From: Planctomycetota bacterium | GTDB taxonomy: Bacteria; Planctomycetota; UBA1135; UBA2386 | Reading direction: 5' to 3' | Assembly: GCA_965250175.1 (NCBI GenBank) | Contig: CBDFNI010000009.1 | Span: 1,258,265-1,322,264 of the forward strand | Length of the DNA: 64,000 nt | In this document: positions 1,511-64,000 of the stretch, piece by piece | Position numbering within the stretch: the first letter of the stretch is position 1 | Layout: the number at the start of each line of letters is the position of its first letter | Translations under genes and position numbers: made by a program | The notes under the pieces: model-generated | Databases searched by the model: none | What the model saw: only the letters and a program-made list of their open reading frames with translations | What the model was told of the DNA's origin: nothing

Positions 1511-1615
1511 GGCTGGCCGGCCGGCTTGGATTGACTATGACTCTGGTGGTTTGACGCCGATTGCAATCTGTGTCAACATGTACAGAGTATGGTACAAGAA
1601 GCCGATGGAGGAAAC

Positions 1616-1909
1616 ATGGCCCGCAGCACTGACATCACCAGTTTTTCGGAGCATCGCCAGCACCTCAGGGAGCATTTGACGCAGGTGCGAGAAACCGGTC
1701 GACCGCTCTACGTCACGACCAACGGTGAAACGGATGCAGTGGTCTTGAGTCCAGAAGCCTTTGATGAGTTGGCGGACAAGGCTGAGCTTGCGGAGAGCCT
1801 GGCAACCATCGAACAAAGCATGAAGGACCTGCGTTCCGGTCGAGGCAAACCGTTCAAGGAAGCGATTCACCAGATTGCTGAGGAACTTGGGTTGAAGCTG
1901 GATAGATGA
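1616..1909 (+). CDS. type II antitoxin, Phd/YefM family
   Basis: Phd/YefM-like N-terminus (TDITSFSEHRQHL...GRPLYVTTNGETDAVVLSPEAFDEL); GGAGGA SD upstream of ATG 1616 (a longer ORF starts at 1589); its stop overlaps the toxin start (ATGA). Confidence 0.75.
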   Translation: MARSTDITSFSEHRQHLREHLTQVRETGRPLYVTTNGETDAVVLSPEAFDELADKAELAESLATIEQSMKDLRSGRGKPFKEAIHQIAEELGLKLDR

Positions 1910-2253
1910 CCTACGAGGTCAAGATTGCTCCGCTAGCGTTGGAGAAGTTGTACGAGCAGGCTGTCTACATTGCGAATGAACAGGGTGCGCCAGAAACCGC
2001 GGTGCGTTGGCTGCAAAGAATTCTGCAAGCTGGCGAATCACTTGCGGACATGCCTCGACGTTGTGCGTGGGCACCGGAGGATTCCTCCTGCCCCTACGAA
2101 GTGCGTTCAATGACAATTGGGCAGTTCATGCTGCTCTTTACTATCCTCGAAGAGACCAAGACCGTCTGGATTGTCAACGCAAGGCACGCTCGTCAACTTC
2201 CCCAACCTGGCGATACTCTTCCTGAACTCGACTCGCTGGAGAACGAAGAGTGA
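1906..2253 (+). CDS. type II toxin, ParE/RelE family
   Basis: 115 aa; C-terminal YEVRSMTIGQFMLLFTILEETKTVWIVNARHARQ matches the ParE/RelE core; translationally coupled to the upstream antitoxin. Confidence 0.75.
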   Translation: MTYEVKIAPLALEKLYEQAVYIANEQGAPETAVRWLQRILQAGESLADMPRRCAWAPEDSSCPYEVRSMTIGQFMLLFTILEETKTVWIVNARHARQLPQPGDTLPELDSLENEE

Positions 2254-2272
2254 GGCTTCGCAATGCGAGCGC

Positions 2273-2425
2273 ATGTTCGAACTCTTTGTGCGGGGTGAAA
2301 AACCAGCCACGGTGCGCATTGGCAGCCTGGACTTCGATGCTTGTTGTTTAGACGCACCCATCCCCAAGGGCCAAACCGTCAAGGTGCTTGAGGTTCAGAA
2401 CGGCAAGCTCTTGGTGGGTCTGTAG
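2273..2425 (+). CDS. orphan NfeD-like C-terminal OB-fold fragment (50 aa)
   Basis: MFELFVRGEKPATVRIGS...GQTVKVLEVQNGKLLVGL resembles the NfeD C-terminal beta-barrel motif; the longer ORF 2117..2425 overlaps parE and is unlikely to be real. Confidence 0.25.
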   Translation: MFELFVRGEKPATVRIGSLDFDACCLDAPIPKGQTVKVLEVQNGKLLVGL

Positions 2426-8819: not shown

Positions 8820-8900
8820 CGTCTTGCCTCCAACGATACCTACGCACCGCAAGCGTAGGGAGGCTTAATATAAAGGCCTACTAATTCTGCGTCATACCAC
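7728..8900 (-). mobile_element. IS630-family insertion sequence (~1.17 kb)
   Basis: Imperfect terminal IRs GCGCATCACACCACTA / GCGTCATACCACTA flanked by TA dinucleotides (7726-27 and 8901-02); contains a DDE transposase with the DNYATHK motif. Confidence 0.8.
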
Positions 8901-8910
8901 TAGGTGCAGG

Positions 8911-32931: not shown

Positions 32932-33108
32932 ATGACCTACCCAAACAAACCTGCGGCCAAATTCCATCTCACCATCCTTGCCTGCTGCCTCTTCGCTGTT
33001 CCCGGCTTTAGCCAGACTCGGGAGAAGAAGCCTAGTGCGAAGAACTTCCCTACCTTGATCAATGAAAGCTTGATGGAGTTTGAGGGGAAGAAATTCAGCC
33101 TCTCCTAA
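32932..33108 (+). pseudogene. 5' part of a secreted-protein gene interrupted by ISL3
   Basis: Signal peptide MTYPNKPAAKFHLTILACCLFAVPGFSQT; the frame ...EGKKFS reaches the IS target duplication at 33090-33099 and continues at 34721 in the same frame. Confidence 0.55.
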
Positions 33109-34710
33109 AGGAGGTGTAGGTCATGCCGGGTGCTGATTTCGTCTGGGGACCTTGTATTCGCAAAGGAGAACGCGGATAGCTGCATCTGAAACTCGGTGGG
33201 TTCCCGGTACAGGTTGTAGGCCCTCTTTGAGGATGTGGCAGAGTGCCAAGCCGCCCTGGCGGTTTGGCATCTAAGGAAAGGGCCGTGAGCCGTAGGGGCA
33301 GTCAAGGCTGGCCGTAGGCCACGAGCGGAGCGAGCTTGGCCTTTATGGCACCGAGGCTTGCGGCACAGAGCTGGGGAAAGCTGTTTGCGTTGAGCCAAGC
33401 GTACATAGAAATTGCGCACTGACTGCGTCGAGCATGTTTGATCGCTCTCGACGCAATGGACTTAGTTTTACGCAAGGTCGCATCAGTGCGCGTCACCACC
33501 CTACTCAACAAGCTCCTCAATCTCCAGGGGCTCCGGGTCACCGGAGCCCAATTTCAAGACGGCGAGATGATTCTCAGTGTCCACCGACGATTCCAGCTTC
33601 TGACCTGCCCACACTGTGGCAAGCGCAAGCGTGGCCGAGAATCCAAACGAAAGCGGCGATGGCGACACTTGGGCATCTGGGGCCATGAGGTTTACTTGGA
33701 GGGTGAAATACGGCGTTTACGGTGCAAGAAATGCAATGTGGTTGTGACCGAGGCGGTCCCCTGGGCCAGGCATGGCAGTGACTTTACCAAGCCCTTTGAG
33801 GATGTGGTCGCCCTGCTGGCGCAGCAAACAAACGTAACAGCCGTCGCCAGGCTGACTGGGATTTCGTGGGTGACCGTAGGAGCAATCGCTGAGCGTGTCG
33901 TCAGCGAGAACCTTGACCCAAACCGCTTTGATGGTCTGCGCCGCATTGCTGTGGACGAAATCAGCTTCCGCAAGCGACACCGCTACCTGACGGTGGTCAC
34001 CGACCACGACAAGAGAAGGGTAATCTGGGTCGCCGAAGGCAAGAGTGCTGATGTGTTCAAGAGATTTTTCACCGAAATCGGTGCTGATGCTTGCGAGCAC
34101 ATCGAAATTGCCACCATGGACATGTCGGCTGCCTACCGAAAGGCGGCAGCGGAAAATCTTCCAAATGCACAGATCGTCTTTGATCACTTCCACATTGCCA
34201 AGTTGGCCAACGAAGCTCTCAACGAGGTCCGGCGTGAACTCATGCGCAATGCCGACAATCCCGATGCCAAGAAGGCAATCAAGGGAACGATGTGGGCACT
34301 CCTTCACCGCCAAGATAACACCACCGAAAAGCACATGGGCATCATCGGTCATCTTCGCCCGGAGCAACCACTTGGGCGCGCCTACTTGCTCAAGGAGACT
34401 CTGCTCGACATCCTGCGAGGCAGCATCAAAGAGTCAGAGCTTGCTCTTGATGGTTGGATGGCCTGGGCTTCACGCTCCCGACTCAAGCCATTCGTCAAAC
34501 TCGGCAAAACGATCCGCAAACACCTTGGCGGGATCCTGGCTCTCTTCAAAGAACGATTCACCAATGGCCTGGCGGAAGGCATGAACAACAAAATTCGCCT
34601 CCTCAGCCATCGCGCCTATGGCTTCCACAGCGCAGCCCCTTTGATTGCTACCATCTTCCTCTGCTGTGGTGGGGTCAGGCTTCCTGACCTACAACTGCTT
34701 TAGGAGAACC
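33100..34710 (+). mobile_element. ISL3-family insertion sequence (~1.6 kb)
   Basis: ~24-bp terminal IRs TCTCCTAAAG[G/C]AG[G/T]TGTAGGTCA (33101-33123; 34685-34708 reverse complement) flanked by direct repeat (G)AAATTCAGC (33090-33099 and 34711-34720). Confidence 0.8.
33438..34703 (+). CDS. ISL3-family transposase
   Basis: zf-ISL3 N-terminus (LLNLQGLRVTG...CPHCG...C) and DDE region with C-terminal TNGLAEGMNNKIRLL...RAYGF typical of ISL3. Confidence 0.85.
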   Translation: MIALDAMDLVLRKVASVRVTTLLNKLLNLQGLRVTGAQFQDGEMILSVHRRFQLLTCPHCGKRKRGRESKRKRRWRHLGIWGHEVYLEGEIRRLRCKKCNVVVTEAVPWARHGSDFTKPFEDVVALLAQQTNVTAVARLTGISWVTVGAIAERVVSENLDPNRFDGLRRIAVDEISFRKRHRYLTVVTDHDKRRVIWVAEGKSADVFKRFFTEIGADACEHIEIATMDMSAAYRKAAAENLPNAQIVFDHFHIAKLANEALNEVRRELMRNADNPDAKKAIKGTMWALLHRQDNTTEKHMGIIGHLRPEQPLGRAYLLKETLLDILRGSIKESELALDGWMAWASRSRLKPFVKLGKTIRKHLGGILALFKERFTNGLAEGMNNKIRLLSHRAYGFHSAAPLIATIFLCCGGVRLPDLQLL

Positions 34711-34711
34711 G

Positions 34712-35200
34712 AAATTCAGCTCTGCCATCAGCAAGCTGCAGGAGGCCATCCGCATTGCCAAGGAGGAGCTGAAGAAGGCTCTCATCGCAGCAATGCCCAA
34801 CCCTGAGGGTTTCACCGTAAAGAAGCCACGGAGGAACAGGAACGCGGGGAATCCTTTTGCAAAAAACCTGCTCGGTAGCATTGCCGACCCTATTGAGCAC
34901 ACCCTCAATGGGGCCGATGGCAAGAGTATCAAGATCTCATGTGTGATGGATTCGCCATTGATCCAGATGCTGAATATGACTTTTGGTCTTGCTGAGAGCA
35001 ACCCGGATCAGGAAGCCATTGGCTACAATGAGCAAAAGGGTATGCTGGAGAAGAAGGGTGACAATGGCTTCAACTTGCAAATCATTCTCTGGGGCAAGCA
35101 CCTGATCACTATAGTTACCAAGGGAATCAGCGAAGAGGATCTGTTCAAGTGGTTCAACCAGGAATGGGTGGACAAGATTGCTGCCCTGCTAGGGAAGTAA
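34712..35200 (+). pseudogene. 3' part of the ISL3-interrupted secreted-protein gene
   Basis: The frame KFSSAISKLQEAIRIAKEELKK... continues in frame from the duplicated target; the annotated 135-aa ORF (34793..35200) is its tail. Confidence 0.5.
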
Positions 35201-38085: not shown

Positions 38086-38190
38086 AGGCAGGACTTGATT
38101 ACATAGTCGATACCTCCTCGGACATTCTCTCGGCGGGACTCCGTGCTACACTGGCCCGCCGTCATGAAAGTGTGGAAGACGCGAACCTCG

Positions 38191-40143
38191 ATGCATGGGA
38201 AGATTCTGTTCCTCTTGGGCTTGGTCCTGCTTGTTGGTTTGGCAGTGGTTGCCATTCGCTCCAGCTGGGCATTGCCCGAAGGGGCTTTGGGGACGGCACA
38301 CCAGCTATTGCATGAGCAGGATGATCTACTTGCTGCTGAGGCTTTGCACGCCGAGGCATCAGGGACAGCGCAAGCTCCTGCTGATAAAGCTCGGCGTCAA
38401 GAATTGTCCAAGAATGCTGCAGGGGATAGCAAAAGCTTCTACTTCATCACTGGTCGTTGTGTGGCGGCGGAGGATGGTTTGCCCTTGCCAGGTTGCAAGG
38501 TGGTTCTAAACGATCGCTGGAACTTGAAGTTGAATCTGGACGCCATTCCCCTGCATTTTCCCCAGACCGTTAGTGATGAGCATGGTTTCTTCCGTCTGGA
38601 GCTACAGTGGGAAAAACATCGGCATCCGCCGTTGGTCTTCTTTGCCCCACACCGGGTCACGTTGGCGATCAATTCATGGAAAGTCGATGAACGTGAGCAA
38701 TGGGAATTGGGGGATGTGGCATTGCCACTTGGCTCCAGAGTTCGACTTCAAATTTTGGACCAAGGCAGCCTGCCGGTTCGGGGAGTGCAAGTCACTCTCA
38801 TATATCAGGGTGATCTTGCGCCGCTCGTTAAATCCAAAGCAGAGCCCTTGAGAACCATTCAGGATTTCAGCGATGCTGCCGGAGTCGTACACTTTGGCCA
38901 GAATAGTTTGTCCCCAGGGGACTGGAAGATTCGTGTCTCCGAGTTTCAGCCGCCGAAAGAGTTTCCTGCGCTTAGCATCCTTCCCGGGCAGAAATCGGTA
39001 GAGCGCACTCTTGTGTTGGAAGTGCCATCCAAAGACATCGTTGCTGGGGTGATCATGGATGAAGAAGGAAAGCCAATGGCTGGTCGAACTTTGCAGGTTT
39101 CATGTCAGCGCGCCAGGCGCCTCCGTCCTGGCTCGAACACCATTTACATGTCTACCAAAATTCTTGCAGACGGGTTCTTTCGAGTGCAGCGCAGCGGCGA
39201 GAAGGAGCCGCAAAGTTTGCATGTTGTGGACCAGCCGGAATATGAAGAGTTGCACTTTCCTGGTCCTCTGCCCTGGGGGCGGACAGACCTGCATTTGGTC
39301 ATGCACAAGAAGGCAAGGCCGGATCCCCAGTTCCACTTGCGGGTATTGGAGGCATCAACCGGCAAGCCAGTGTTGGGCTATGGCCTGCGATTCTATGCTT
39401 CACCCTGGACTTCAAGTCCGTTGCAACGTCCTCAAGCTGAAGCTGCTGCCAAGAAAGTGATATTGCATGGCCGCCATGAGGATGGACGTGTGAGTCTGGC
39501 TTGCTTGCCGGAATACTCCCATGCCTTGACCATATATCCACATAAGAAAAACCTGGCTTGCAACGGCATTGCTTTTGTAGATACAGCTGCGTCTGGAGAT
39601 ACGGACTTCACCTTGTTGCTTTTTCCCAAGGTGAAGCAGTCGGTGCGATTGCTTCACACAGATGGGCAGCCCGTTGTTGGCTGTGAAGTGCAGTTGCTGC
39701 GATGGATGTCCAGAAATACAGGCGGGCCAAGCATCAATGCTATGCTGCACGGATTCATCGTTCCTGTTGAGTATGCTTATCTGCCCAGTAGGCGAACTAA
39801 GGGATGGCCCAATTATTTGTCTACTATCTTGTTGCAGTATGATCGAGGGCTTACGGACCACGAGGGTAGGGTGCAATTGTCGGGTCCTGGGGACGGCCAG
39901 GCTCTATTGCTGTGGGCGCAGAGTGAGGATATGCAGCCTGCACTAGAAGAAGGGGTGCTGTTGCAGGATGGCGCGGCGGAACGGGTGATGACCGTTGTTT
40001 CCTCTGCGAAGCTATCCATTCAGTTACATCCCAATGAACATTGGCAACGCATTGTCAATGCCGTGGGATGGGAAGCCGAATCCAGGCAGGCTGCGATTGC
40101 GCAGTGCAAAGACCGGCAGATATGTTCCCAATTTGGTTGGTGA
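38191..40143 (+). CDS. large secreted repeat protein, paralog copy 1, main part (frameshifted gene)
   Basis: Signal anchor MHGKILFLLGLVLLVGLAVVAIRSS; carboxypeptidase-regulatory-like (transthyretin-fold) motifs (ITGRCVAAEDGLPLPGCKVVL); ~50% identical to copy 2; the frame is lost at ~40050-40075. Confidence 0.55.
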   Translation: MHGKILFLLGLVLLVGLAVVAIRSSWALPEGALGTAHQLLHEQDDLLAAEALHAEASGTAQAPADKARRQELSKNAAGDSKSFYFITGRCVAAEDGLPLPGCKVVLNDRWNLKLNLDAIPLHFPQTVSDEHGFFRLELQWEKHRHPPLVFFAPHRVTLAINSWKVDEREQWELGDVALPLGSRVRLQILDQGSLPVRGVQVTLIYQGDLAPLVKSKAEPLRTIQDFSDAAGVVHFGQNSLSPGDWKIRVSEFQPPKEFPALSILPGQKSVERTLVLEVPSKDIVAGVIMDEEGKPMAGRTLQVSCQRARRLRPGSNTIYMSTKILADGFFRVQRSGEKEPQSLHVVDQPEYEELHFPGPLPWGRTDLHLVMHKKARPDPQFHLRVLEASTGKPVLGYGLRFYASPWTSSPLQRPQAEAAAKKVILHGRHEDGRVSLACLPEYSHALTIYPHKKNLACNGIAFVDTAASGDTDFTLLLFPKVKQSVRLLHTDGQPVVGCEVQLLRWMSRNTGGPSINAMLHGFIVPVEYAYLPSRRTKGWPNYLSTILLQYDRGLTDHEGRVQLSGPGDGQALLLWAQSEDMQPALEEGVLLQDGAAERVMTVVSSAKLSIQLHPNEHWQRIVNAVGWEAESRQAAIAQCKDRQICSQFGW

Positions 40144-40915
40144 GGGTGAGGTGTCCAAAGGAGGGAGTATTCAGGTCAGCAGTCTGCCACCTGGGACTTA
40201 TGACATAGAACTGAGCTTGCGACTGCCACCGACCTACATCGAGCAGCGGGTGATTCTTGATGGGCCCTGGGAGGTGCAGGCAGGGCAAAAACGCAGCGTG
40301 GAGTTGGATATCAGTCACTTGGTTCCTGTGAATCTAACTGGGGAGGCAATGCTCAATGGGCGGCCTCTGGCCGAGGGAGAATTCATCCTGCGACGTTGTC
40401 AGCCAGCGGCTTCTCGAAGGGAGAAACCTAGAGGAATGAGAACGCGGCTGGTTGACTTGAAACTGAAGACCGATGCTCAAGGTGCTTTCAGCATGGAGAA
40501 TGCTGTACCCGGCGAATATGAGGCCGTCTTGCGGGTCGCGCGCTCCGGTCCTGTCAGGGAGATCGTTGCGGTGGACAAAGTTGTATTGCTGCCCGGCGAG
40601 AGTCGTCATGTCCTGTTTGTCTTCACCAAGACCCGAGCCCGGATTCGGATTCTATCTGCAGATGGAAAGCAAGCCCTGGTCAACCGCCGGGTTTCCTGGA
40701 GAGTGAAGGGGATCTTTTTCTACCAACCGTTCAAGGATCCTACTGACGACCAAGGCCTGCTTGATATTCCGGTGCTGCCTGCTGGGGAGTTGGAGTTCCA
40801 GCTCATGCCAGTTCCAGGTAAGAGCAATAGTGTTCCCTTGGGCATGTTGATTGTGCCTGTGGGCCAGGCGGACTTCACCGCGGAGCTGCGGGCGCCGGCA
40901 GAGGAAGGCAAGTGA
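39995..40915 (+). CDS. paralog copy 1, C-terminal part in the +1 frame
   Basis: From ~40072 (GKPNPGRLRLRSAKTG...) it aligns with the copy 2 C-terminal third (GHLRLRSAKTG...PGTYDISLSF...VVDISHLVP...). Confidence 0.5.
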   Translation: MFPLRSYPFSYIPMNIGNALSMPWDGKPNPGRLRLRSAKTGRYVPNLVGEGEVSKGGSIQVSSLPPGTYDIELSLRLPPTYIEQRVILDGPWEVQAGQKRSVELDISHLVPVNLTGEAMLNGRPLAEGEFILRRCQPAASRREKPRGMRTRLVDLKLKTDAQGAFSMENAVPGEYEAVLRVARSGPVREIVAVDKVVLLPGESRHVLFVFTKTRARIRILSADGKQALVNRRVSWRVKGIFFYQPFKDPTDDQGLLDIPVLPAGELEFQLMPVPGKSNSVPLGMLIVPVGQADFTAELRAPAEEGK

Positions 40916-40957
40916 GGTCAAAGCTTGGACAACCATCCTCTGCCAACGAGGGACGTC

Positions 40958-41500
40958 ATGATGAATAGGAGAGTCCTGCTGCTGTTGGCTTTGTTCCTGT
41001 GCTTGGGTTTGACTGTTGTGGTCATTCGTTCCAGCGGGACTTTTCCAGAAGGAGCTTTGGAGACGTTGCCGCAGAATGCACAGGAACAAGAGGCTTCTCT
41101 TTCGGCTGAGGCTTTGCTAGCTGAGAAATCTGCGGAAGAGCAACTTGTCACAACGAAGGGTCATCGACAAAGGATCGACAAGGATGAGAAACCGGCAATA
41201 GATCCGAAACATTTCTACCTCCTCCACGGCCGGTGCATTGCGGCAGAGACGGGTTTCCCCTTGTCGAACTGCAAGGTGTTGCTCAATGTCAATCAATCTG
41301 TCTTGCGTGACCCGGAGAACATTCCCAGTTGGGTTCAGCATGCTGTCAGTGATGATAAAGGCAAGTTCAGTCTGCGCCTGCGCAAGTACTCGAATCCACG
41401 ATTGATTCTATATGCGAAGGGCAGAGCCATCCTGGTTGCAATGCCCGGCAAGGTTCGGGAGCTCAGTGAGTTGGATATTGGTGATTTGTTCTTTCGCTAG
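40958..41500 (+). CDS. paralog copy 2, N-terminal part (frameshifted gene)
   Basis: MMNRRVLLLLALFLCLGLTVVVIRSS signal anchor; HGRCIAAETGFPLSNCKVLL motif; ends at an in-frame TAG where copy 1 continues. Confidence 0.5.
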   Translation: MMNRRVLLLLALFLCLGLTVVVIRSSGTFPEGALETLPQNAQEQEASLSAEALLAEKSAEEQLVTTKGHRQRIDKDEKPAIDPKHFYLLHGRCIAAETGFPLSNCKVLLNVNQSVLRDPENIPSWVQHAVSDDKGKFSLRLRKYSNPRLILYAKGRAILVAMPGKVRELSELDIGDLFFR

Positions 41501-41508
41501 GGGCTCGC

Positions 41509-43701
41509 GTGCAGATTCAAATTGTGGACCAAGAGAATCAAGCTGTCCGCGGGTTAAACATGTCCTTGAATGCCGAGCTGCCGGATGCGCGGCGTAGAGG
41601 GTTGGTGGTCGTGCCTTGGGCCAGGCTCAACTTCAGCAGTGATGCCAATGGCTTGGTGGACTCCGGATCACTTTGCCTGGCGGCGGGGGAATGGGTGTTG
41701 GCGGTTTCTGAATTCAAACCAGCGCAGGAGCAGGTCTTGAAAATTTCAGCGAACCAAACCTTGGCAACGAAAACGCTGATATTGCAGGTTCCCCATGCGG
41801 ACTTGATTGAGGGTGTGCTGCAGAGCGAAGGTGGTCAGGCTTTGGGCAAGCAAACCATGCAGCTTTCCTATGATGACTTACAGGGAAGGCGCGTCTTCTA
41901 TGTCGAGCACACTTTGGCAGATGGCTTTTTCCGTTTGCAACGTAGAGGCAAGCTAGTGCCAAAGGAATTGCATGTGGTGGATATCCCTGATTATCAGGAT
42001 CTACATCTACCCGGTCCTTTGCCTTGGGGTCGATCCGATCTGCGATTGGTAATGCAGAAGATGCGAGGGCCTGAATCCAAGCTTCACTTGCAAGTCGTGG
42101 CCGCAGAGACCGGTCATCCGGTGGAGCAATATGGTCTGCGTTTTTATATCTCTCCCTGGCGCGATGATCCCCTGCAGCGTCCCCATGCAGAGGGCGCCGG
42201 CGAAAAGGTGATTTTACAGGGTAGGCATGAAGCAGGGCAGGTGGACCTTCCTTGTCTACTTGGATCGACTTATGCCTTGACCGTTTACCCCGAGGACAAG
42301 AGTCTGGCATGCAATGGTATTGCTTTTGTGGACACCGCTGCCACAGGCGATACTCAATTCACCCTACAGCTCTATCCCCTGGTGTCGCAGTCGGTGCGAG
42401 TGCTGCATGGCGATGGCCGACCGGTATCTGGCTGCAAAGTGCAATTGCTCCGTCAGGTGGTTGAGATTCCTGACGGTTCAGGCCGACAGCATGTAATGCG
42501 TGGAGCCAAGCTATTGCTGAAAGACGCACGCTTGGCCAAGCGTGGTAGCTTTAGGATGAGTGGTCTTAGCATTAGCCGGAGCGTTTCCCTGGTATATGAC
42601 GAAGGCCTCACGGACAAAGAGGGTCGGGTGCTGCTTATGGGGCCAGCTGATGGGCAGCCTATGGACCTAATGGCGCAAAGCGACGAAGCGCAGCCAGCGA
42701 AGATAGAAGGTGTGCAGCTACAGAAAGGTGCCGCAGAAGTGCTGATGACCGTCATGACTTCGGCCAAGGTTTCCGTGCAACTCCAACCCAAAGAACTATG
42801 GCAACGACTGTCGCCGCAGCGGAAGGGGCGTTGGCAGATTGGTCATCTGCGCCTGCGGAGTGCCAAGACCGGTTATGAGTTTCCAGCTGGCACCAACGAG
42901 GGTGAGGTGTCCGTGGACGGCAACATCCAGATCAAAGATGTGTCGCCGGGCACCTATGACATTTCTCTCAGCTTCCGCATGCCACCTACCTATTACCCGC
43001 AGTGGGCAATCCTTGGTCCAGAGTGGGAGATCGGTGAAGGGGAACAACGCGACATGGTAGTGGACATCAGCCATCTTGTTCCCGCCAGCTTTGCTGGCCG
43101 AGCCATGGTGAATGGCAAACCAGTGGTAGAGGGGGATTTGACCCTGCGTCGATATCGACCAATGCCTTCCGGGACCAATCCGCGCCGTGGCAAGTCTGCC
43201 ATGCGAGTGGATATACCGGTGCAGACGGATTCCCTGGGTGCCTTCAGAATGGAGAACTTGATCCCCGGTGAGTATGAAGTGATCTTGAAGGTGATGCAGG
43301 GAAGGCGGCAGTATCCGGTCAGCAGCCAGAGCAAGTTCATGTTGGCGCCGGGCGAGAACCGCCACGAGCTCATTGTCTATTCCCGAACCGAAGCAAAGGT
43401 TCAACTGCAGGCCGGGGCGGCTGACATCTCTCTGGCCTATCGCCAAGTTGTTTGGCAGGCCCGCACCGGCCAGCTGCAAAAAAATGGGACGGGTCATTCT
43501 GATGCTGAGGGCATGTTGTTCATACCTGATCTGCGTGCAGGTGAGTGGCACTTCACCCTCTCCCCTGACCGGAGTCAGGTGAACTTGTTGGGCGGGAAAG
43601 CCAAGGGAGTCTCCTTGGGCACCTTGTTCGTGCCAGAAGGCTTGACTGAATTTACAGCGGAGTTGAAGGTGCCGGGGGAGGAACTCAGTGAGTCTCGATA
43701 G
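41509..43701 (+). CDS. paralog copy 2, main part (different frame, GTG start per ORF track)
   Basis: GARVQIQIVDQ aligns to copy 1 GSRVRLQILDQ and continues collinearly to the C-terminus; the frame change lies at ~41465-41490. Confidence 0.55.
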   Translation: MQIQIVDQENQAVRGLNMSLNAELPDARRRGLVVVPWARLNFSSDANGLVDSGSLCLAAGEWVLAVSEFKPAQEQVLKISANQTLATKTLILQVPHADLIEGVLQSEGGQALGKQTMQLSYDDLQGRRVFYVEHTLADGFFRLQRRGKLVPKELHVVDIPDYQDLHLPGPLPWGRSDLRLVMQKMRGPESKLHLQVVAAETGHPVEQYGLRFYISPWRDDPLQRPHAEGAGEKVILQGRHEAGQVDLPCLLGSTYALTVYPEDKSLACNGIAFVDTAATGDTQFTLQLYPLVSQSVRVLHGDGRPVSGCKVQLLRQVVEIPDGSGRQHVMRGAKLLLKDARLAKRGSFRMSGLSISRSVSLVYDEGLTDKEGRVLLMGPADGQPMDLMAQSDEAQPAKIEGVQLQKGAAEVLMTVMTSAKVSVQLQPKELWQRLSPQRKGRWQIGHLRLRSAKTGYEFPAGTNEGEVSVDGNIQIKDVSPGTYDISLSFRMPPTYYPQWAILGPEWEIGEGEQRDMVVDISHLVPASFAGRAMVNGKPVVEGDLTLRRYRPMPSGTNPRRGKSAMRVDIPVQTDSLGAFRMENLIPGEYEVILKVMQGRRQYPVSSQSKFMLAPGENRHELIVYSRTEAKVQLQAGAADISLAYRQVVWQARTGQLQKNGTGHSDAEGMLFIPDLRAGEWHFTLSPDRSQVNLLGGKAKGVSLGTLFVPEGLTEFTAELKVPGEELSESR

Positions 43702-43768: not shown

Positions 43769-45268
43769 GTGGCGGAGATTTGTGCCAGTGTATCTGTGGC
43801 CTACCAGCGGCGGGAGCCGGAGAAATCGGTGCTCTACCGGGTGCTGGCAAATCATCTGCAGGACTTCATCCAGCAGGTCGAAGCGGACCCGGACCGATCC
43901 GGTCTACCGACCTTCGTCAAGCGGGAGCTGTTTGGCTACCTGGACTGCGGCTTGCTGAGCAAAGGCTTTGTCCGGGTCCATTGCCTGACATGTGGCAGGG
44001 ATGCTCTGGTAGCCTTCTCTTGTAAGGGCCGTGGCTTTTGTCCCTGCTGTGGTGGACGGCGCATGGCGGACATGGCGGCTCATCTGGTGGACCATGTGCT
44101 GCCGGCAGTTCGAGTGCGGCAATGGGTCTTGAGTCTGCCGCCGCAACTGCGCTACCTGTTGGCTTTCCACCCTGAGGTCTGCCGGCAGGTCCGGGGCATC
44201 TTCATGCGGTCAGTGCTGGGCTTTTATCGGCGCCGGGCTTTGCGCCAGCAGCAAGTGGATGGGCGCTGTGGTGCGGTGACAGTTTTGCAACGCTTCGACT
44301 CTGCTCTGCGCCTGGACCCTCACTTTCATGCTGTGGTTTTGGATGGGGTGTTTACGGGACTTGAGGAGGGGTCAGTGCCAAGGTTTCAGCGGGCAAAAGC
44401 CTTGCACGATAAGGAAGTTGCCTGGCTGTGCCGTCATGTGCGCCGCCTGATCCTTGGCCATCTGCAGCGGCGGGGGTTTCTGGATGCAGACGAAGGTCTG
44501 GCGACGGACAGTTTTGATGAGCACAACGCTCTGACGGTGTGCCAGGCAGCGGCAGTGCAGGGGAAGATCCCCTTTGGGGCGAGTGCTGGAGCACAGGTTA
44601 CTCAGTTGGGTCTGTTTGCGGAAATGTCGGCACAGGATGCCAGGGTTTCGTCAAACAAGAAACGGCTATGTACCGATGTTGGGGGCTTCTCCCTACATGC
44701 CGGGGTGCATGTGAAAGCAGGGAAGCGCAAAAAGTTGGAGCACCTGTGCCGCTACCTGCTCAGGCCTGCGGTGTGTGGTGAGCGTTTGACGATGACCCGG
44801 CGGGGGCAGGTGGTGTACCGGTTTCGGCATCCATGGCGCAATGGGACGCAGGCTGTGTTGATGAGCCCCATGACCTTCATCTCAAGGCTGGCAGCACTGG
44901 TGCCGTATCCGCGAGCGCATGTGCTGACCTACCATGGTGTGTTGGCGCCGGCGGCCAAGGGTCGGCGCAAGGTGGTACCGCCGTTGGTAGAAGCAGTAGG
45001 CAATGCAACCCGCTCCCTGCCGGATGCCAGCCGCAGGACATGGCTTGGTGGTGTGCGGCGCAGGCGGCTTTTGTGGGCGGAGTTGATGCAGCGGGTGTTT
45101 TTGCGGGATGTGCTGCAGTGTGATGCCTGCGGGGGCAGACGCAGGGTGCTGCGCTTTGTGCTGGAGGGGCGTGCGGTGACGCGCATCTTGCGGCACTTGG
45201 GTTTGCCTACTACAGCGCCACCGATTGCATCGGCTCGTGCATCACCGGGGATGTTGCCCTTTGCTTAG
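43769..45268 (+). CDS. IS91-family (Y2/HUH rolling-circle) transposase
   Basis: N-terminal zinc-binding HCLTCG...FSCKGRGFCPCCGGRRM and the HUH motif LDPHFHAVVLDGVF, both hallmarks of IS91/ISCR transposases. Confidence 0.7.
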   Translation: MAEICASVSVAYQRREPEKSVLYRVLANHLQDFIQQVEADPDRSGLPTFVKRELFGYLDCGLLSKGFVRVHCLTCGRDALVAFSCKGRGFCPCCGGRRMADMAAHLVDHVLPAVRVRQWVLSLPPQLRYLLAFHPEVCRQVRGIFMRSVLGFYRRRALRQQQVDGRCGAVTVLQRFDSALRLDPHFHAVVLDGVFTGLEEGSVPRFQRAKALHDKEVAWLCRHVRRLILGHLQRRGFLDADEGLATDSFDEHNALTVCQAAAVQGKIPFGASAGAQVTQLGLFAEMSAQDARVSSNKKRLCTDVGGFSLHAGVHVKAGKRKKLEHLCRYLLRPAVCGERLTMTRRGQVVYRFRHPWRNGTQAVLMSPMTFISRLAALVPYPRAHVLTYHGVLAPAAKGRRKVVPPLVEAVGNATRSLPDASRRTWLGGVRRRRLLWAELMQRVFLRDVLQCDACGGRRRVLRFVLEGRAVTRILRHLGLPTTAPPIASARASPGMLPFA

Positions 45269-46945
45269 CCCGGACTATTCACGAGTGTGCTGTTGATCGC
45301 GATTTTTTGGTCCTTGCTGGCCGGCATGGTGAAGAATCAAGGGGATTTGCTTTCGACACTCTGAAGTGAGCGTTGGCAAAGGTCCATGGGCCTGAAATAT
45401 CGCCGGAATGGCCACCTCCGTACAGTCCCGTGGCGCAGTAGATGCGATGCAGTTGGATTCCATTCGGCGCTACGCCGTCTTTGGTCTACCGCGAGCACTG
45501 ACAGCACATGCTGCACGCTCCCACAATTCTACCCATGGATAACATTTCGGCAGATGGACCACTACCCGACGCACTGATTCTTGTACGCGAGCTGCGACCT
45601 TGATCAACATTTCCCGAAATCGCCCTACCTGGGTGCGGCCTGCATCAGTCCGACGAAGGCGCCAGCGCAGCTCCTGGTAGAGCAGATACGCCGTAGCCGT
45701 CATCAATACTCGGAATTGATTGGCGATGTAGCTTGAGCAGCTTGTGCGATCAATGTCGAGATCATGCAGTAGTTCTTTGATGCGGTTCTCGGAATCACCT
45801 CGACCACGATAGATCTTGTACACGTTTTCCGGTGTGTGCCGAAGATTGGTGATCACAAATCGAGGATTCGACTTTGCACTTCTTCCTTCATACTGCAGCA
45901 CCTCAGCTTTGAGGATGACCCTCCGCTCGCGATTCCATGACTTTGCACGGTAAGCAGCCTCTCCAAAGAGTTGGATGGATTCGTTTTGGCGAGCAGAGAG
46001 CGTCTGGGCCATGGTCATCCAATCCTTGGCTTTCGCTTTGAGGACGCTGTTGCTGGCCATTGCGACCACATACTCGACTTTTAGATCTTCAAGCGCAGCG
46101 ATGATCCTTGGGTTTGCAAAGCCGCCATCTAACCGTACACGAATCTTTGCTTTCGGGAATCGGTACCTGAGCTCGGCGACCGTCCGCTGCAACAATGGAA
46201 TGCATCCTCGGTTTGCCGTTGAGTTCCCTGGTCGAAGCCGAGCGGAGAAGAGAAATTGATCTGGATGACCATCCACTGACAAAAAGCCAAGGAGAGGATG
46301 GAAACACCAGGTGTCGTAGTAGCCATTGAAAAAGCTGAATGCTTGCTGACCATGGGTGGGATCGTCAGTGGAATCAAAGTCGATGGTGATGCGCTTTGGT
46401 CGCCGATGACGCTTCTTGAGCAGACCAATAGCTTTCTTCTCCAGCCAACGTGTGGCTTGTACAGCCTCTTTTGCCGTGGGCATGTTTTCAAACCGGGATA
46501 ACGTCGGTTGCGATGCCAGCTGATCTTCGCCAAGTGCATCCATGCCGCTGATCATTTTCAGGATCGGGTCATTTGCCATTTTGGCTGCGTCGTTGCCATC
46601 GCTGTAGCCCATGGCGATGGAAAACACACGTTGCCGGAGAATCGTCAAAAAGTCGTGTGTTGTGCGGCCCGGATTGCGTCGATCGCAAAATTGAGCTGCA
46701 AGTCCGCTGGTCAGGCCGAGTTGCTGATCGAGCTGGCCAAGCAGGATTGCACCGCCATCGGAGCTTTGTCCTTCTGCGTCAAAGATGGGGACGACGGACT
46801 TCTTGGCGATGTCTGGAAGAATAACAGACTGTTGAGTAGGCTTGGCCATGCGGATTGTGGTGTCGTTTGTTCCAAGTAGCGTGTAGTTACCACTTAGTAC
46901 GAATGATCCACAGTCCGCGGTTTACCTATTCATGAATAGTCCAGG
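45269..46945 (-). mobile_element. IS1380-family insertion sequence (~1.68 kb)
   Basis: Terminal IRs CCCGGACTATTCA / CCTGGACTATTCA (46933-46945 reverse complement) flanked by 4-bp direct repeat TTAG (45265-68, 46946-49); the left TTAG contains the IS91 transposase stop codon. Confidence 0.75.
45470..46849 (-). CDS. IS1380-family DDE transposase
   Basis: ITIDFDSTDDPTHGQQ, VRLDGGFANPRII and the C-terminal Y(2)R(3)E(6)K-like IYRGRGDSENRIKEL align with ISEcp1-type IS1380 transposases. Confidence 0.8.
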   Translation of the reverse strand: MAKPTQQSVILPDIAKKSVVPIFDAEGQSSDGGAILLGQLDQQLGLTSGLAAQFCDRRNPGRTTHDFLTILRQRVFSIAMGYSDGNDAAKMANDPILKMISGMDALGEDQLASQPTLSRFENMPTAKEAVQATRWLEKKAIGLLKKRHRRPKRITIDFDSTDDPTHGQQAFSFFNGYYDTWCFHPLLGFLSVDGHPDQFLFSARLRPGNSTANRGCIPLLQRTVAELRYRFPKAKIRVRLDGGFANPRIIAALEDLKVEYVVAMASNSVLKAKAKDWMTMAQTLSARQNESIQLFGEAAYRAKSWNRERRVILKAEVLQYEGRSAKSNPRFVITNLRHTPENVYKIYRGRGDSENRIKELLHDLDIDRTSCSSYIANQFRVLMTATAYLLYQELRWRLRRTDAGRTQVGRFREMLIKVAARVQESVRRVVVHLPKCYPWVELWERAACAVSARGRPKTA

Positions 46946-47040
46946 TTAGGTGGGTAGGCTTGGCTGAACGGCAACAAGCAGAACAGGGGGAAGGTAGTTG
47001 ACGCCAGCCAGGGGTGTGTACCAAGCCGGGAAAAAGCGGA

Positions 47041-47092
47041 CTTGGGGCGGAGGCAGGGTTGTGGAGATGGGGGAGGAGTGATGGAATGTGGC
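47041..47092. repeat. ~52-62 bp repeat, copy A (copy B at 62807..62868)
   Basis: CTTGGGGCGGAGGCAGGGTTGTGGAGATGGGGGAGGAGTGATGGAATGTGGC vs CTTAGGGCGAAGACATGGGTTGTGGAG(GTTGTGGAG)ATGGTGGGGGAGTGATGGAATGTGGC, ~85-90% identity. Confidence 0.6.
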
Positions 47093-47123
47093 GACCAAGA
47101 ATTCTGAACGGTGGTGTTTGGAA

Positions 47124-47447
47124 CTAAAAACCCTGGTTTGGAATACCTGTCCTCCAGGACGGCGCCTTCTTGCCAGAGTAGACATTGACCTGCCCTTCAA
47201 AGCCGCGCTCACTCTTTGACCAACCAATCTGGCTGGCCACGATGTCCAGGACACCGTCATTGTTCACATCGCCAGCGCCGCTCACTGATCTGCCTAGCAT
47301 ATCATTCCTTTTCTCACCCTCGATAGCCCAGAACGTTGAGCCGTTCTTTCCGGAATAGACAGCAAATCGACCTGCACCTCGAATTTCGTCGCTTGTGTAT
47401 GGGGTTCCATCTGGTTTGGAATACCTGTCCTCGTGCCGGTGAAACAC
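47124..47447 (-). pseudogene. FG-GAP repeat protein fragment
   Basis: SVSGAGDVNNDGVLDIVAS and SDEIRGAGRFAVYSG are FG-GAP motifs; 107 aa, bounded by identical 22-bp direct repeats CTGGTTTGGAATACCTGTCCTC (47134-47155, 47411-47432). Confidence 0.45.
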
Positions 47448-47899
47448 GCAGCATGATAGTGGACATCAGCCACTTGGCTCCAGCAAGCCTTTCGGGTCGT
47501 GCCACGTTGAATGGGAAGCCCCTGGTCAAGGAGAGCTTCATCCTGTGGCACCAGCGTCCGAAGTCTGGTGGGACTGGGCATCGACAGCCTGGTTATTCTC
47601 AGGTGGGGGATGTGCCGGTGGAGACCGATGCTCTGGGCGACTTCCAGATGGTGAATCTGGTTCCCGTGGAATACCAGGCCATCCATAGGCTGGTGATTGA
47701 CAAGAGGAAGTACGAAATCAAGGCAGAGGGCAAGTTCACACTGGTTCCGGGGGAGAACACCGTGACCCAGCTCGTCTTCACCAAGGTCCCTGCGCCGGCT
47801 ACCGAAGAAGTCCGCGAGTCCCTGCCTGCACTATCTTGCCATCTACCCTCATCCGCCCGCGTTTCCCGCAAAGCCCGCCCCCCGCCGCCAAGGAGCTAG
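47440..47899 (+). pseudogene. 5'-truncated third copy of the large secreted paralog family
   Basis: MIVDISHLAPASLSGRATLNGKPLVKESFILWHQRP ~ copy 2 MVVDISHLVPASFAGRAMVNGKPVVEGDLTLRRYRP and downstream GDFQMVNLVPVEYQAI ~ GAFRMENLIPGEYEVI; it then diverges and ends. Confidence 0.45.
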
Positions 47900-47933: not shown

Positions 47934-48476
47934 ATGGCCAAGGTTGATGCAAAACCTCCGCAGCCGCGAACCGAGCTGGCGGAATTCAAAGTCAATGGCG
48001 AAGGGCACCAGGTTGCCTACGCCACCCACAAGACCCTTCTAGAGGTGCTGCGGGAGGATATGAACCTCACCGGCACCAAGCACGGCTGCGAGCTGGGCGA
48101 GTGCGGGACCTGCACTATATTGCTCGACGGCAAGCCGGTGCTTTCCTGTCTGGTCCTGGCGCAGGATGCGGTGGGTCAGGACATCCGCACCGTGGAGGGA
48201 ATGGCCGATGGTCCAACCCTGCACCCGCTGCAGGATGCCTTTGCTGATCTGGGTGCGGCCCAGTGCGGCTACTGCACGCCGGGCTTCTTGTTGACTGCCC
48301 AGGCCCTGTTGGAAAAGAACCCCAAGCCCGAGCGCCAGACCCTGGTGGAAGAGTTGGCGGGCAATCTTTGCCGCTGTACCGGATACCTGAAGATCTACGA
48401 GGCCGTTGAACTGGCGGCGGCTCGCATGCGCGGAGAAAAAGCGGAGCCCAGCAAGGAGAGCATCTATGGCCACTAA
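47934..48476 (+). CDS. molybdenum hydroxylase small subunit, (2Fe-2S)-binding
   Basis: Both 2Fe-2S motifs: CELGECGTCT...C and CRCTGY / CGYCTPG. Confidence 0.85.
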   Translation: MAKVDAKPPQPRTELAEFKVNGEGHQVAYATHKTLLEVLREDMNLTGTKHGCELGECGTCTILLDGKPVLSCLVLAQDAVGQDIRTVEGMADGPTLHPLQDAFADLGAAQCGYCTPGFLLTAQALLEKNPKPERQTLVEELAGNLCRCTGYLKIYEAVELAAARMRGEKAEPSKESIYGH

Positions 48477-62617: not shown

Positions 62618-62806
62618 GGCGGTATCTCGTAGCAGGAAGCTGCAAACCCCGACGCACGCCCGTGTGCGGCGACGAGGCGGGGGTGGGACAGTAAGGCAGG
62701 TCGCGGATTTCGCCCGCTATTTTTCGGGGATGTCCGCCCGCAAGGGAGACACCGCCCCGACTGCAGACCCGGTGCCCGGGCGCTTACGGAGTCAGGAGAA
62801 GGTGGG

Positions 62807-62868
62807 CTTAGGGCGAAGACATGGGTTGTGGAGGTTGTGGAGATGGTGGGGGAGTGATGGAATGTGGC
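62807..62868. repeat. ~62 bp repeat, copy B (see copy A at 47041..47092)
   Basis: Near-identical core GGTTGTGGAGATGG(T)GGGGGAGTGATGGAATGTGGC; internal 9-bp duplication GTTGTGGAG. Confidence 0.6.
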
Positions 62869-62893
62869 AATGAGAGGATGGCCATGAGCTGGT

Positions 62894-63157
62894 GTGCAAG
62901 TGAATCCCGGCCGTGCGCCGACTCCAATCGGAGGCGATGGGATCCTGCCCTTCGTCGACGTGCCGCACTGGATCACCTTGGAGCTGACTCGACTGCTTCG
63001 CCACCACCGAATCGAATACCAGGTGCGTGCAGGCTACATCCGGCGAGCCGACTCCGATGATCCGGATGACCACATGGATCGACTGATGTTCCCCTTGGCG
63101 CGACCCGAGCAAGTGCAGGTCTTGGTCGATTCCATCAAACCGCCCGGCTGCGGGTAG
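62894..63157 (+). CDS. hypothetical small protein
   Basis: 87-aa ORF with reasonable coding composition; no recognisable family. Confidence 0.25.
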   Translation: MQVNPGRAPTPIGGDGILPFVDVPHWITLELTRLLRHHRIEYQVRAGYIRRADSDDPDDHMDRLMFPLARPEQVQVLVDSIKPPGCG

Positions 63158-63365
63158 GATCGGGCTTTGACACCGGACAGACCGATCAGCATGTCGGGGC
63201 AAGAATGCGTAGTCGAAATCCGTGTTGCCAGTCTGGGGCTGCCCTAGAAGAAAATGGTAGGGGGTATGAATGCGACAGGCGGGGCTGAGTCCAGAAGACT
63301 CAGCTCCGCCTGTCTCTAATGCAACCATGGATAGGACTCCCAAGTGCTGGAAGCCCTGGTTCCTA

Positions 63366-64000
63366 TCATGGCGTGGTTGTCATCGGCACCCAGTTGGTAG
63401 CCTTCTGGAAGGTATCACAGCCAACACCGCAACCATCCGAGGTGTAGACCAACGCAGCATGGTGCAGGGTGATGCCTAGGGGTGCTGGCGTTGGGCCAAA
63501 GGTGTTCAGGGAAGGCGTCCCCTTGCCAAAGCCATCCAGAGTGCTCTTCCAGCCAACAAAGGTGGGAGCGCCACCGCCCAGCTGGGTGAGACCAATGACA
63601 AAGCTGGTCAAGGGATCAGGCTGGTTCAGTGGGATCACCACACCAGGGGCCATTACGACACCGGGGGTGTCGCCACTAGCAGCAAAGCCGGTGAACAGCC
63701 AGTAGTTCTTGCCTGCGTTGACAACACCCGCATCGATGGTCATGGTTTGGGAGTTGGCCACGCTCAGCGACAACAGGTGCTTGTCTGCAGTAAGGGACAT
63801 CGAGGTGCTGGAGATCACGTAGGCCCGGCCATTGTCCATGGACTCGTCGCCGGTGCCCGCGGTGCCATCAGGGCCCAGTGGATCGGCATCCCAAAAGGGC
63901 GCACCGGCCAGGATGTCGGGGGTACCATCCCCGTTCATATCGCCGGCGCCGCTCACGCTGTTGCCCAGGAAGTCACCATCACCGAAGTAAAGACCACCGA
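63366..64000 (-). CDS. FG-GAP repeat protein, C-terminal part (gene continues beyond the window end)
   Basis: GAGDMNGDGTPDILAGAP FG-GAP motif; the frame is open to 64000. Confidence 0.6.
   Translation of the reverse strand, partial: GGLYFGDGDFLGNSVSGAGDMNGDGTPDILAGAPFWDADPLGPDGTAGTGDESMDNGRAYVISSTSMSLTADKHLLSLSVANSQTMTIDAGVVNAGKNYWLFTGFAASGDTPGVVMAPGVVIPLNQPDPLTSFVIGLTQLGGGAPTFVGWKSTLDGFGKGTPSLNTFGPTPAPLGITLHHAALVYTSDGCGVGCDTFQKATNWVPMTTTP

What the first reader, a model, noticed from the sequence alone, without database searches (positions are those of the whole stretch)
38143..43701. Tandem pair of ~920-aa paralogous secreted proteins, each carrying an apparent frameshift
Copy 1 (38191..40915) and copy 2 (40958..43701) are collinear and ~50% identical, with signal anchors and repeated carboxypeptidase-regulatory/transthyretin-like modules. 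Each is split into two ORFs: copy 1 at ~40050-40075 (+1 shift) and copy 2 at ~41465-41490. A third truncated copy lies at 47440..47899, beyond an IS91-family and an IS1380 element. The pattern suggests a locally expanding and decaying gene family, possibly mobilised by the rolling-circle IS91 element. Alternatively the shifts are sequencing indels.
Basis: seen in the sequence. Interest (0 to 1): 0.55.

Follow-up and report, generated by a model that had tools for sequence, protein, structure and literature searches.

The report
Two frameshifted tandem beta-sandwich protein genes
Two neighbouring, anciently duplicated genes for membrane-anchored, all-beta repeat proteins in a planctomycete genome are each broken by a single-base indel, next to a stump of a third copy and two nested insertion sequences; this is most likely ordinary gene decay in a transposon-rich region.

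Summary
Copy 1 (38191..40915) and copy 2 (40958..43701) are collinear paralogs, 45-49% identical in protein. A one-base edit restores each to a single ORF of 907 or 914 aa. Each has one N-terminal membrane anchor followed by about nine transthyretin-like (CarboxypepD_reg) beta-sandwich domains. A 121-aa stump of a third copy lies at 47432..47794, beyond an IS91-family element with an IS1380 element nested at its stop codon.

The organism is a Planctomycetota bacterium with no close relative in public data. The proteins belong to a distant family (20-26% identity) of mostly intact 850-910 aa proteins. Some relatives carry an N-terminal ECF sigma-factor fusion.

Nothing supports programmed frameshifting or phase variation. 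I found no other frameshift in the roughly 50 other genes of the window, so random sequencing indels are an unlikely cause of two hits in adjacent paralogs (p about 0.005). They cannot be excluded without reads.

The duplication is ancient (synonymous sites saturated, dN/dS below 1), so "locally expanding" and "mobilised by IS91" are not supported. IS91-associated rearrangement probably did destroy the third copy.

Verdict: recent pseudogenes in an IS-rich, compositionally atypical patch. Ordinary, low interest.

The parts
38191..40915 (+). Copy 1: gene for a 907-aa (reconstructed) membrane-anchored multi-CarboxypepD_reg protein. It is split into frame 1 (38191..40143; the 650-aa product is P0003 in public data) and frame 2 (about 40067..40915).
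40052..40084 (+). Copy 1 frameshift site (+1, one extra base). The most parsimonious position is the GGG run at 40065-40067.
40958..43701 (+). Copy 2: gene for a 914-aa (reconstructed) paralog. It is split into frame 2 (40958..41500, 180 aa, P0002) and frame 1 (41509..43701, 730 aa, P0001).
41482..41499 (+). Copy 2 frameshift site (-1, one missing base). Most likely TTTT became TTT at 41492-41494. The resulting stop codon TAG lies at 41498-41500.
43769..45268 (+). IS91-family (HUH rolling-circle) transposase gene, 499 aa and apparently intact. It starts at most 67-94 nt after the copy 2 stop codon.
   Evidence: Y2_Tnp 95.9 bits, Zn_Tnp_IS91 57.9 bits
45269..46945 (-). IS1380-family element (transposase 45470..46849, 459 aa) with imperfect terminal inverted repeats and a 4-bp target duplication TTAG (45265-45268 and 46946-46949). 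It is inserted exactly at the IS91 tnpA stop codon.
   Evidence: (I14)
46950..47154 (+). 3' arm of the IS91-like element, ending in the 22-mer CTGGTTTGGAATACCTGTCCTC (47133-47154). A similar terminal motif, GAA..CCTRYCCTC, occurs 155-267 nt downstream of tnpA in the three closest metagenomic relatives.
   Evidence: (D11)
47155..47410 (-). Antisense fragment of an FG-GAP repeat gene, similar to the genes at 62792..63956(-).
47411..47432 (+). Second, solo, perfect copy of the 22-nt IS91-like terminus, directly abutting the copy 3 fragment.
   Evidence: (D11)
47432..47794 (+). Copy 3 remnant: 121 aa matching aa 695-816 of copies 1 and 2 at 40-45% identity, truncated at both ends. It sits inside ORF 47336..47899 (P0005).

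Best explanation
Copies 1 and 2 are old tandem paralogs of a Planctomycetota family of type-II membrane-anchored, extracytoplasmic proteins. Each has a short N-terminal tail, one transmembrane helix, an acidic and alanine-rich linker, and then about nine transthyretin-like (CarboxypepD_reg) beta-sandwich domains with no enzymatic domain. The most probable role is a periplasmic or cell-envelope binding or scaffold protein; this is inferred.

Both genes evolved under purifying selection for most of their history. Each has recently acquired one single-base indel at a short homopolymer: an extra base in copy 1 and a missing base in copy 2. Copy 1 would now give a 650-aa anchored truncation lacking the last three or so domains. 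Copy 2 would give a 180-aa anchored stub plus, at best, a 730-aa remainder with no export signal.

Together with the stump of a third copy and the IS91/IS1380 pile-up, this is a gene cluster under relaxed selection that is being lost.

Shown: paralogy, architecture, the lesions, the IS structure and the age of the duplication. Inferred: that the indels are real mutations rather than consensus errors, and the function of the proteins.
For: 1. One frame change per copy, each restorable by a one-base edit.
2. Remote relatives are single ORFs of 850-910 aa, collinear over the whole length. For example, P0007 (900 aa) aligns at residues 25-896 with residues 29-902 of copy 1. The unsplit form is therefore the family norm.
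3. Copy 1 and copy 2 diverge as coding sequence in every segment, both upstream and downstream of each shift. Mismatches run pos3 > pos1 > pos2, with dN/dS about 0.08-0.38 and saturated dS. No further stops occur in 282 and 730 downstream codons. The lesions are therefore recent relative to the duplication.
4. No other frameshift candidate survives in the window. This rests on a codon-usage frame scan, near-full-length Pfam coverage of about 45 other genes including five intact transposases, and resolution of the one ambiguous pair as two coupled genes. With uniform errors, two hits landing one in each paralog has p of about 2 x (2.7/57)^2, roughly 0.005.
5. Independent decay lies nearby: copy 3 is reduced to 121 aa next to a solo IS91 terminus; IS1380 is nested in the IS91 element with an intact TSD; and ISL3 interrupts another gene 4 kb upstream.
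Against: - No reads are available, and no second genome of the species exists in any collection searched, so the indels cannot be verified.
- Both fall at short homopolymers, the error class of long-read assemblies. A 1.67-Mb contig that spans several IS copies suggests long reads.
- If this is a MAG, strain heterogeneity in fast-evolving envelope genes could produce consensus indels specifically here.
- The function is inferred from fold only.
Confidence: 0.6

Rival explanations
1. Both frameshifts are assembly or consensus indel errors, and the genome really carries two intact paralogs of 907 and 914 aa.
For: - Each is repaired by a single-base change at a homopolymer, GGG or TTT.
- No other lesion occurs in 2.7 kb of either gene, and all segments show a coding-type divergence pattern.
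- The long contig crossing IS elements suggests long-read data.
Against: - The runs are only 3-4 nt long, which is not the typical error-prone length.
- No other gene of about 50 in 64 kb shows a frameshift. Chance co-location of two errors, one in each paralog, has p of about 0.005.
- The neighbourhood shows real decay: the copy 3 stump and IS insertions with target duplications.
Confidence: 0.3
2. The split is functional: programmed ribosomal frameshifting, transcriptional slippage or phase variation yields full-length protein conditionally, or the separate pieces work as subunits.
For: - Both shifts fall in inter-domain linker regions.
- SD-like G-rich stretches precede possible restart codons: GTG 41509 and GTG 40151.
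Against: - There is no X XXY YYZ slippery heptamer at 41486-41499.
- The copy 1 zero frame runs about 60-90 nt past the shift window before its stop, so there is no stop-codon-stimulated +1 site.
- Downstream RNA folds no better than shuffles (z 0.20 and -0.17).
- Homopolymers of 3 nt are far too short for slippage or phase variation.
- The two shifts differ in position and direction.
- Relatives are unsplit.
- The downstream pieces lack any export signal.
Confidence: 0.04
3. Copies 1 and 2 are cargo brought in by the IS91-like element through one-ended rolling-circle transposition (read-through past its upstream end), so the cluster is a mobile island. This is compatible with either reading of the frameshifts.
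For: - The copies lie directly 5' of tnpA on the same strand, with at most 67-94 nt between the copy 2 stop and the tnpA start. In related metagenomic IS91-like contigs tnpA starts 244-513 nt from the contig end.
- All four gene pieces are among the six lowest GC3 values of 51 genes, 0.56-0.61 against about 0.70-0.80 for core genes.
- Relatives show no conserved synteny around the XDH operon.
Against: - No left boundary or terminator-like end was identified.
- IS91 tnpA GC3 (0.68) differs from that of the copies.
- Copy 3, on the other side of the IS, has host-like GC3 (0.71) and is an equally old paralog. This argues that the family was resident here before the IS arrived and that the IS landed in a pre-existing array.
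- The metagenomic contig ends are not proven IS ends.
Confidence: 0.1

Closest known systems
Multi-domain CarboxypepD_reg (PF13620, transthyretin-like fold) proteins of Planctomycetota and Acidobacteriota, annotated 'carboxypeptidase regulatory-like domain-containing protein', or mis-annotated 'dioxygenase' / 'protocatechuate 3,4-dioxygenase beta subunit'
   Same: - N-terminal anchor followed by a string of about 85-95-aa seven-stranded beta-sandwich domains, with no catalytic domain.
- Collinear HMM matches over about 720 positions to 850-910-aa proteins.
- All 50 relatives tested hit PF13620.
   Different: - Only 20-26% identical to any relative.
- The window copies barely reach, or miss, the Pfam threshold: 34.9, 29.2 and 29.8 bits against a cutoff of 32.3.
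- Both are frameshifted here.
ECF sigma factors fused through a transmembrane helix to an extracytoplasmic domain (one-polypeptide sigma/sensor proteins)
   Same: Nine of 50 relatives, for example P0008 (1114 aa), carry Sigma70_r2 + Sigma70_r4_2, then a TM helix, then the same beta-sandwich ectodomain.
   Different: The window copies have only 3-5 residues before the membrane helix, so they have no sigma domain and no cytoplasmic signalling part. No ECF sigma gene was detected among the neighbours scanned.
IS91/ISCR-family rolling-circle elements, known for one-ended transposition that co-mobilises adjacent DNA (established knowledge; not re-read here)
   Same: - Transposase with Zn_Tnp_IS91 and Y2_Tnp domains and an HFH (HUH) motif.
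- A conserved terminal motif downstream of tnpA.
- The paralogs sit on the tnpA-upstream side.
   Different: The upstream end of the element is undefined and no cargo boundary was found. The paralogs' divergence is far older than the IS activity, so the IS does not explain the duplication.
Bead-on-a-string surface proteins and macroglobulin (MG) domain proteins: B. anthracis TIE, Gram-positive pilins, bacterial alpha-2-macroglobulin
   Same: The best Foldseek matches are strings of Ig-like or prealbumin-like beta-sandwiches.
   Different: - Global TM-scores are only 0.08-0.16.
- There is no thioester CxEQ motif and no helical thioester domain.
- There is no LPXTG sorting signal.

Membership tests
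CarboxypepD_reg (PF13620) repeat proteins | Pfam PF13620 score at or above the gathering threshold (32.3 bits) | tested here: inconclusive
   Reconstructed copy 2 scores 34.9 bits (passes). Reconstructed copy 1 scores 29.2 and the 730-aa ORF alone 29.8 (both just below). All 50 collinear remote relatives match, with best E 2.3e-39.
CarboxypepD_reg (PF13620) repeat proteins | Seven-stranded transthyretin-like beta-sandwich fold | tested here: met
Signal-anchored / secreted protein | N-terminal positively charged residues followed by a hydrophobic helix, with no other TM segment | tested here: met
   The Kyte-Doolittle 19-residue window peaks at 2.8 at residues 4-23 in both copies and nowhere else. 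There is no lipobox. Cleavage versus anchoring was not predicted with a dedicated tool.
Programmed -1/+1 ribosomal frameshift sites | Slippery heptamer (X XXY YYZ) or a stop/rare-codon +1 site, a downstream stimulatory structure, and conservation in homologues | tested here: not met
   No heptamer is present. Downstream folds give z 0.20 and -0.17. Homologues are single ORFs.
Phase-variable contingency genes | A long homopolymer or short tandem repeat (usually at least 7 units) at the shift site | tested here: not met
   The runs are GGG and TTT only.
IS91 family (neighbouring element) | HUH rolling-circle transposase with an N-terminal zinc-binding domain | tested here: met
   Y2_Tnp 95.9 bits (cutoff 20.9) and Zn_Tnp_IS91 57.9 bits (cutoff 26.3). 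The HFH motif is seen in the sequence. The upstream end and target tetranucleotide were not defined.
IS1380 family (nested element) | DDE_Tnp_1_4 transposase, terminal inverted repeats, 4-5 bp target duplication | tested here: met
   PF13701 scores 397.6 bits. The inverted repeats are 19 nt and 84% complementary (I14). The TTAG duplication lies at 45265-45268 and 46946-46949.
Bacterial alpha-2-macroglobulin | Thioester CxEQ motif and a helical thioester domain | tested here: not met
   Neither copy has CxEQ. The model has no helical domain.
ECF sigma factor fused to a sensor ectodomain | Sigma70_r2 and r4 domains N-terminal to the membrane helix | tested here: not met
   The window copies start 3-5 residues before the helix and give no sigma Pfam hit. 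The domains are present in 9 of 50 relatives.

The most novel reading that the evidence does not exclude
The copy 1 - copy 2 pair is cargo captured and carried by an ISCR-like IS91-family element through one-ended rolling-circle transposition. The solo 22-nt terminus plus the captured antisense FG-GAP fragment next to copy 3 would then be further scars of the same gene-capturing activity. This would be an example of ISCR-style gene capture of envelope-protein genes in Planctomycetota.
Probability: 0.1. Interest if true: 0.45.

Novelty: new member of a known kind. Interest (0 to 1): 0.18.

Why it matters
Mostly it matters as housekeeping.
- It tells annotators that five small or odd ORFs (650, 254, 180, 730 and 166 aa in public protein sets) are really two broken genes and one gene stump.
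- It flags two exact sites to check against reads.

There is a modest biological point. An uncharacterised, fast-evolving Planctomycetota family of membrane-anchored beta-sandwich arrays, whose ectodomain is fused to ECF sigma factors in some relatives, is dispensable in this lineage and is being eroded in an IS-rich patch. If the sigma-fused relatives are sensors, the ectodomain is a candidate ligand-binding module worth testing in a cultivable planctomycete.

Tried and rejected
- Close homologues. The word-indexed search of 5.8 billion proteins returned only the window's own ORFs. The HMMER search of 1.84 billion representatives found nothing closer than E 1e-38. A species-level check of copy number and intactness is therefore impossible with these data.
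- Own genome. The look-up of encoding contigs had no record for P0001 or for the IS1380 transposase. A genome-contig scan with P0001 found nothing, and the alignment A1 was too divergent to use for a scan.
- Synteny. Eighty Planctomycetota and Acidobacteriota loci were retrieved through the neighbouring XDH large subunit (65-77% identity). None share upstream synteny, and only one has a weak family hit, which lies downstream.
- Tandem arrays elsewhere. P0007 sits after two other CarboxypepD_reg proteins in contig L081, but these are not BLASTP-detectable paralogs of it. I do not use this as evidence that tandem paralogy is typical of the family.
- Programmed frameshift, transcriptional slippage and phase variation were rejected.
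- Alpha-2-macroglobulin and pilin membership were rejected.
- Other frameshifts in the window. The candidate pairs 12779-14834(-), 1541-2425(+) and 10484-11643(-) all resolve into separate genes with their own starts.
- Promoter and terminator scan of 37.9-48 kb found nothing above shuffle expectation.
- No tRNA or Rfam hit marks an island border.
- The afdb50 fold library was unavailable.
- Literature searches for this architecture in Planctomycetes found nothing specific.
Full report
**Observation**

The ORF list and translations show four same-strand ORFs between 38143 and 43701: 666 aa in frame 1, 306 aa in frame 2, 191 aa in frame 2 and 730 aa in frame 1. Reciprocal tblastn shows that the first two ORFs together are collinear with the last two together, with exactly one frame change per copy.
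- A three-frame view and trial edits locate the lesions.
- Copy 1 carries one extra base. Any single deletion in 39989-40143 restores one ORF. Homology to copy 2 is in frame 1 up to '...HWQRI' and in frame 2 from 'GRLRLRSAKTG', which narrows the site to 40052-40084. Removing one G from the GGG run at 40065-40067 gives a linker of the same length as in copy 2.
- Copy 2 lacks one base. Only an insertion within 41482-41499 restores the ORF. Adding a T to the TTT run at 41492-41494 yields 'GDLFFSLGARVQIQIV', which aligns with copy 1's 'GDVALPLGSRVRLQIL'.
- The restored proteins are 907 and 914 aa, 45% identical over 900 aligned columns.
- A third fragment, 47432-47794, matches residues 695-816 at 40-45% identity (E 2e-27 and 6e-19). 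No other fragment exists in the window.

**What the proteins are**

- Pfam gives only weak CarboxypepD_reg hits on the window copies: 34.9 and 29.2 bits against a threshold of 32.3.
- The word-indexed search found only the window's own ORFs.
- A profile search of 1.84 billion cluster representatives found 494 relatives. Nearly all are single proteins of about 850-910 aa or about 1050-1140 aa that match the profile collinearly end to end.
- These relatives are 20-26% identical to the window proteins.
- All 50 relatives examined hit PF13620. Nine of the 50 carry N-terminal Sigma70_r2 and r4_2 domains ahead of the membrane helix.
- An AlphaFold2 model of the 730-aa ORF, built with these relatives as its alignment, is confident (pLDDT 81.6, pTM 0.67) and all-beta.
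- Foldseek finds only strings of beta-sandwiches at low TM-score: TIE protein, pilins and macroglobulin domains.
- Each copy has one hydrophobic segment at residues 4-23 and none elsewhere. There is no lipobox, no CxEQ thioester motif and no catalytic domain.

The architecture is thus a short tail, one membrane helix, an acidic linker and about nine transthyretin-like domains. That points to an extracytoplasmic, membrane-tethered binding or scaffold protein. This function is inferred from architecture only.

**Organism and context**

- The neighbouring xanthine-dehydrogenase-type large subunit is 65-77% identical to genes in Planctomycetota MAGs, so the window comes from a planctomycete without a close sequenced relative.
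- Those loci share the XDH operon but nothing upstream of it. Comparative intactness could not be tested.
- The window holds five apparently intact transposase genes: IS630-like, IS5-like, ISL3, IS91 and IS1380.
- IS1380 spans 45269-46945 with a TTAG target duplication, and it sits exactly on the IS91 tnpA stop codon.
- After removing IS1380, the IS91-like element continues to 47154. It ends in a 22-mer whose 3' motif (GAA..CCTRYCCTC) recurs 155-267 nt downstream of tnpA in the three closest metagenomic relatives. That motif was defined from the same hits, so this support is only suggestive.
- A second perfect copy of the 22-mer (47411-47432) directly abuts the copy 3 stump. Between the two 22-mers lies a 256-nt antisense FG-GAP gene fragment.
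- Copy 3 was therefore most likely destroyed by IS91-associated insertion and rearrangement.
- ISL3 (33092-34716) interrupts another small gene 4 kb upstream.

**Are the frameshifts real?**

I could not see reads. The indirect evidence is as follows.
1. The unsplit form is the family norm.
2. In all three segments, upstream and downstream of each shift, copies 1 and 2 differ in the coding pattern pos3 > pos1 > pos2. dN/dS is about 0.08-0.38 and synonymous sites are saturated. No further stops occur. The lesions are therefore recent and the duplication ancient.
3. A codon-usage frame scan of the whole window flags only these two sites as unexplained frame switches. About 45 other genes show near-full-length Pfam coverage. 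The one ambiguous pair, an RdgC-like ORF and its neighbour, has a TGATG overlap with a GGAGG ribosome-binding site and is two genes.
4. If indel errors were uniform, two of them falling one in each paralog has a probability of about 0.005.
5. The cluster sits in a patch of demonstrable decay.

Against this, both sites are homopolymers (though only 3-4 nt long). The 1.67-Mb contig that crosses IS copies hints at long-read assembly. Strain heterogeneity in a MAG could also cause consensus indels specifically in variable envelope genes.

I put real pseudogenisation at about 0.6 and artefact at about 0.3.

**Recoding and phase variation**

- There is no slippery heptamer.
- The downstream RNA folds no better than shuffles (z 0.20 and -0.17).
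- The runs are far too short for slippage.
- The two sites differ in position and direction.
- The downstream products would lack export signals.

I reject recoding and phase variation (about 0.04).

**Expansion and mobilisation**

The three copies are mutually 40-49% identical, so nothing here is a recent local expansion. The four gene pieces of copies 1 and 2 are among the six lowest GC3 values of 51 genes: 0.56-0.61 against 0.70-0.80 for core genes and 0.71 for copy 3. They also lie on the tnpA-upstream side, at most 94 nt from the tnpA start. In established IS91/ISCR biology, that is the side that can be co-mobilised. This keeps a cargo hypothesis alive at about 0.1, but no boundary or second copy supports it. 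The host-like copy 3 on the far side argues that the IS landed in a pre-existing array.

**Comparison and verdict**

These are new, highly divergent members of the known class of multi-CarboxypepD_reg envelope proteins. Here they are inactivated, or apparently inactivated, by single-base indels, beside ordinary IS91 and IS1380 elements. Nothing about the mechanism is new. Interest is low (0.18). The only mildly notable points are the ECF-sigma-fused relatives of the ectodomain and the solo IS91 terminus with a captured gene fragment.

Noticed in passing
window 32932-35200 (ISL3 at 33092-34716): An ISL3-family element (32-nt inverted repeats, 421-aa transposase) interrupts a small gene for a secreted protein. 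Removing the IS joins 'MTYPNKPAAKFHLTILACCLFAVPGFSQ...EFEGK' in frame to the ORF that ends at 35200.
   Followed up: partly
window 47133-47154 and 47411-47432, with 47155-47410 between: A perfect 22-nt direct repeat. The first copy is the probable 3' terminus of the IS91-like element. The second is a solo copy abutting the copy 3 stump. Between them lies an antisense FG-GAP gene fragment similar to 62833-62868 and 63906-63956. How this arrangement arose is not explained.
   Followed up: partly
relatives P0008 (L086 4161-7505), P0167, P0173: Some relatives of the family have an ECF sigma factor (Sigma70_r2 + r4_2) fused N-terminally to the membrane helix and the same beta-sandwich ectodomain; this applies to 9 of 50 examined. 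It suggests the ectodomain can act as a sensor module.
   Followed up: partly
window 38191-43701: The two copies have much lower GC3 (0.56-0.61) and weaker host-type codon usage than nearly all other genes in the window. They are comparable only to the IS1380 transposase.
   Followed up: partly
window 7725-10305 (- strand): Two further adjacent, apparently intact transposase genes: IS630-like DDE_3 (375 aa) and DUF772/DDE_Tnp_1 IS5-like (464 aa). The window therefore holds five IS families in 64 kb.
   Followed up: no
window 1541-2253: Two small overlapping ORFs (1541..1909 and 1906..2253, 4-nt overlap) look by eye like an antitoxin/toxin pair: a Phd/YefM-like 'PLYVTTNGETDAVVLSPEAFDEL' followed by a roughly 115-aa partner. 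This was not tested against any library.
   Followed up: no
window 10484-11643 (- strand): A 213-aa ORF matches only the N-terminal half of RdgC (Pfam positions 7-157 of 298; PDB 2owl residues 37-156). It is translationally coupled (TGATG overlap, GGAGG RBS) to a 172-aa ORF with no detectable family. I read this as two genes, not a frameshift.
   Followed up: yes
window 47934-51995; loci L001-L080: A three-gene molybdopterin dehydrogenase operon (2Fe-2S, MoCo-binding and FAD subunits) is conserved at 60-77% identity across many Planctomycetota and Thermoanaerobaculia MAGs. Only L001 and L029 also share downstream genes with the window.
   Followed up: partly
window 15136-20070 (- strand): A fatty-acid beta-oxidation cluster: an AMP-binding ligase, a thiolase and a FadB-type enoyl-CoA hydratase/3-hydroxyacyl-CoA dehydrogenase. 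All appear intact.
   Followed up: no
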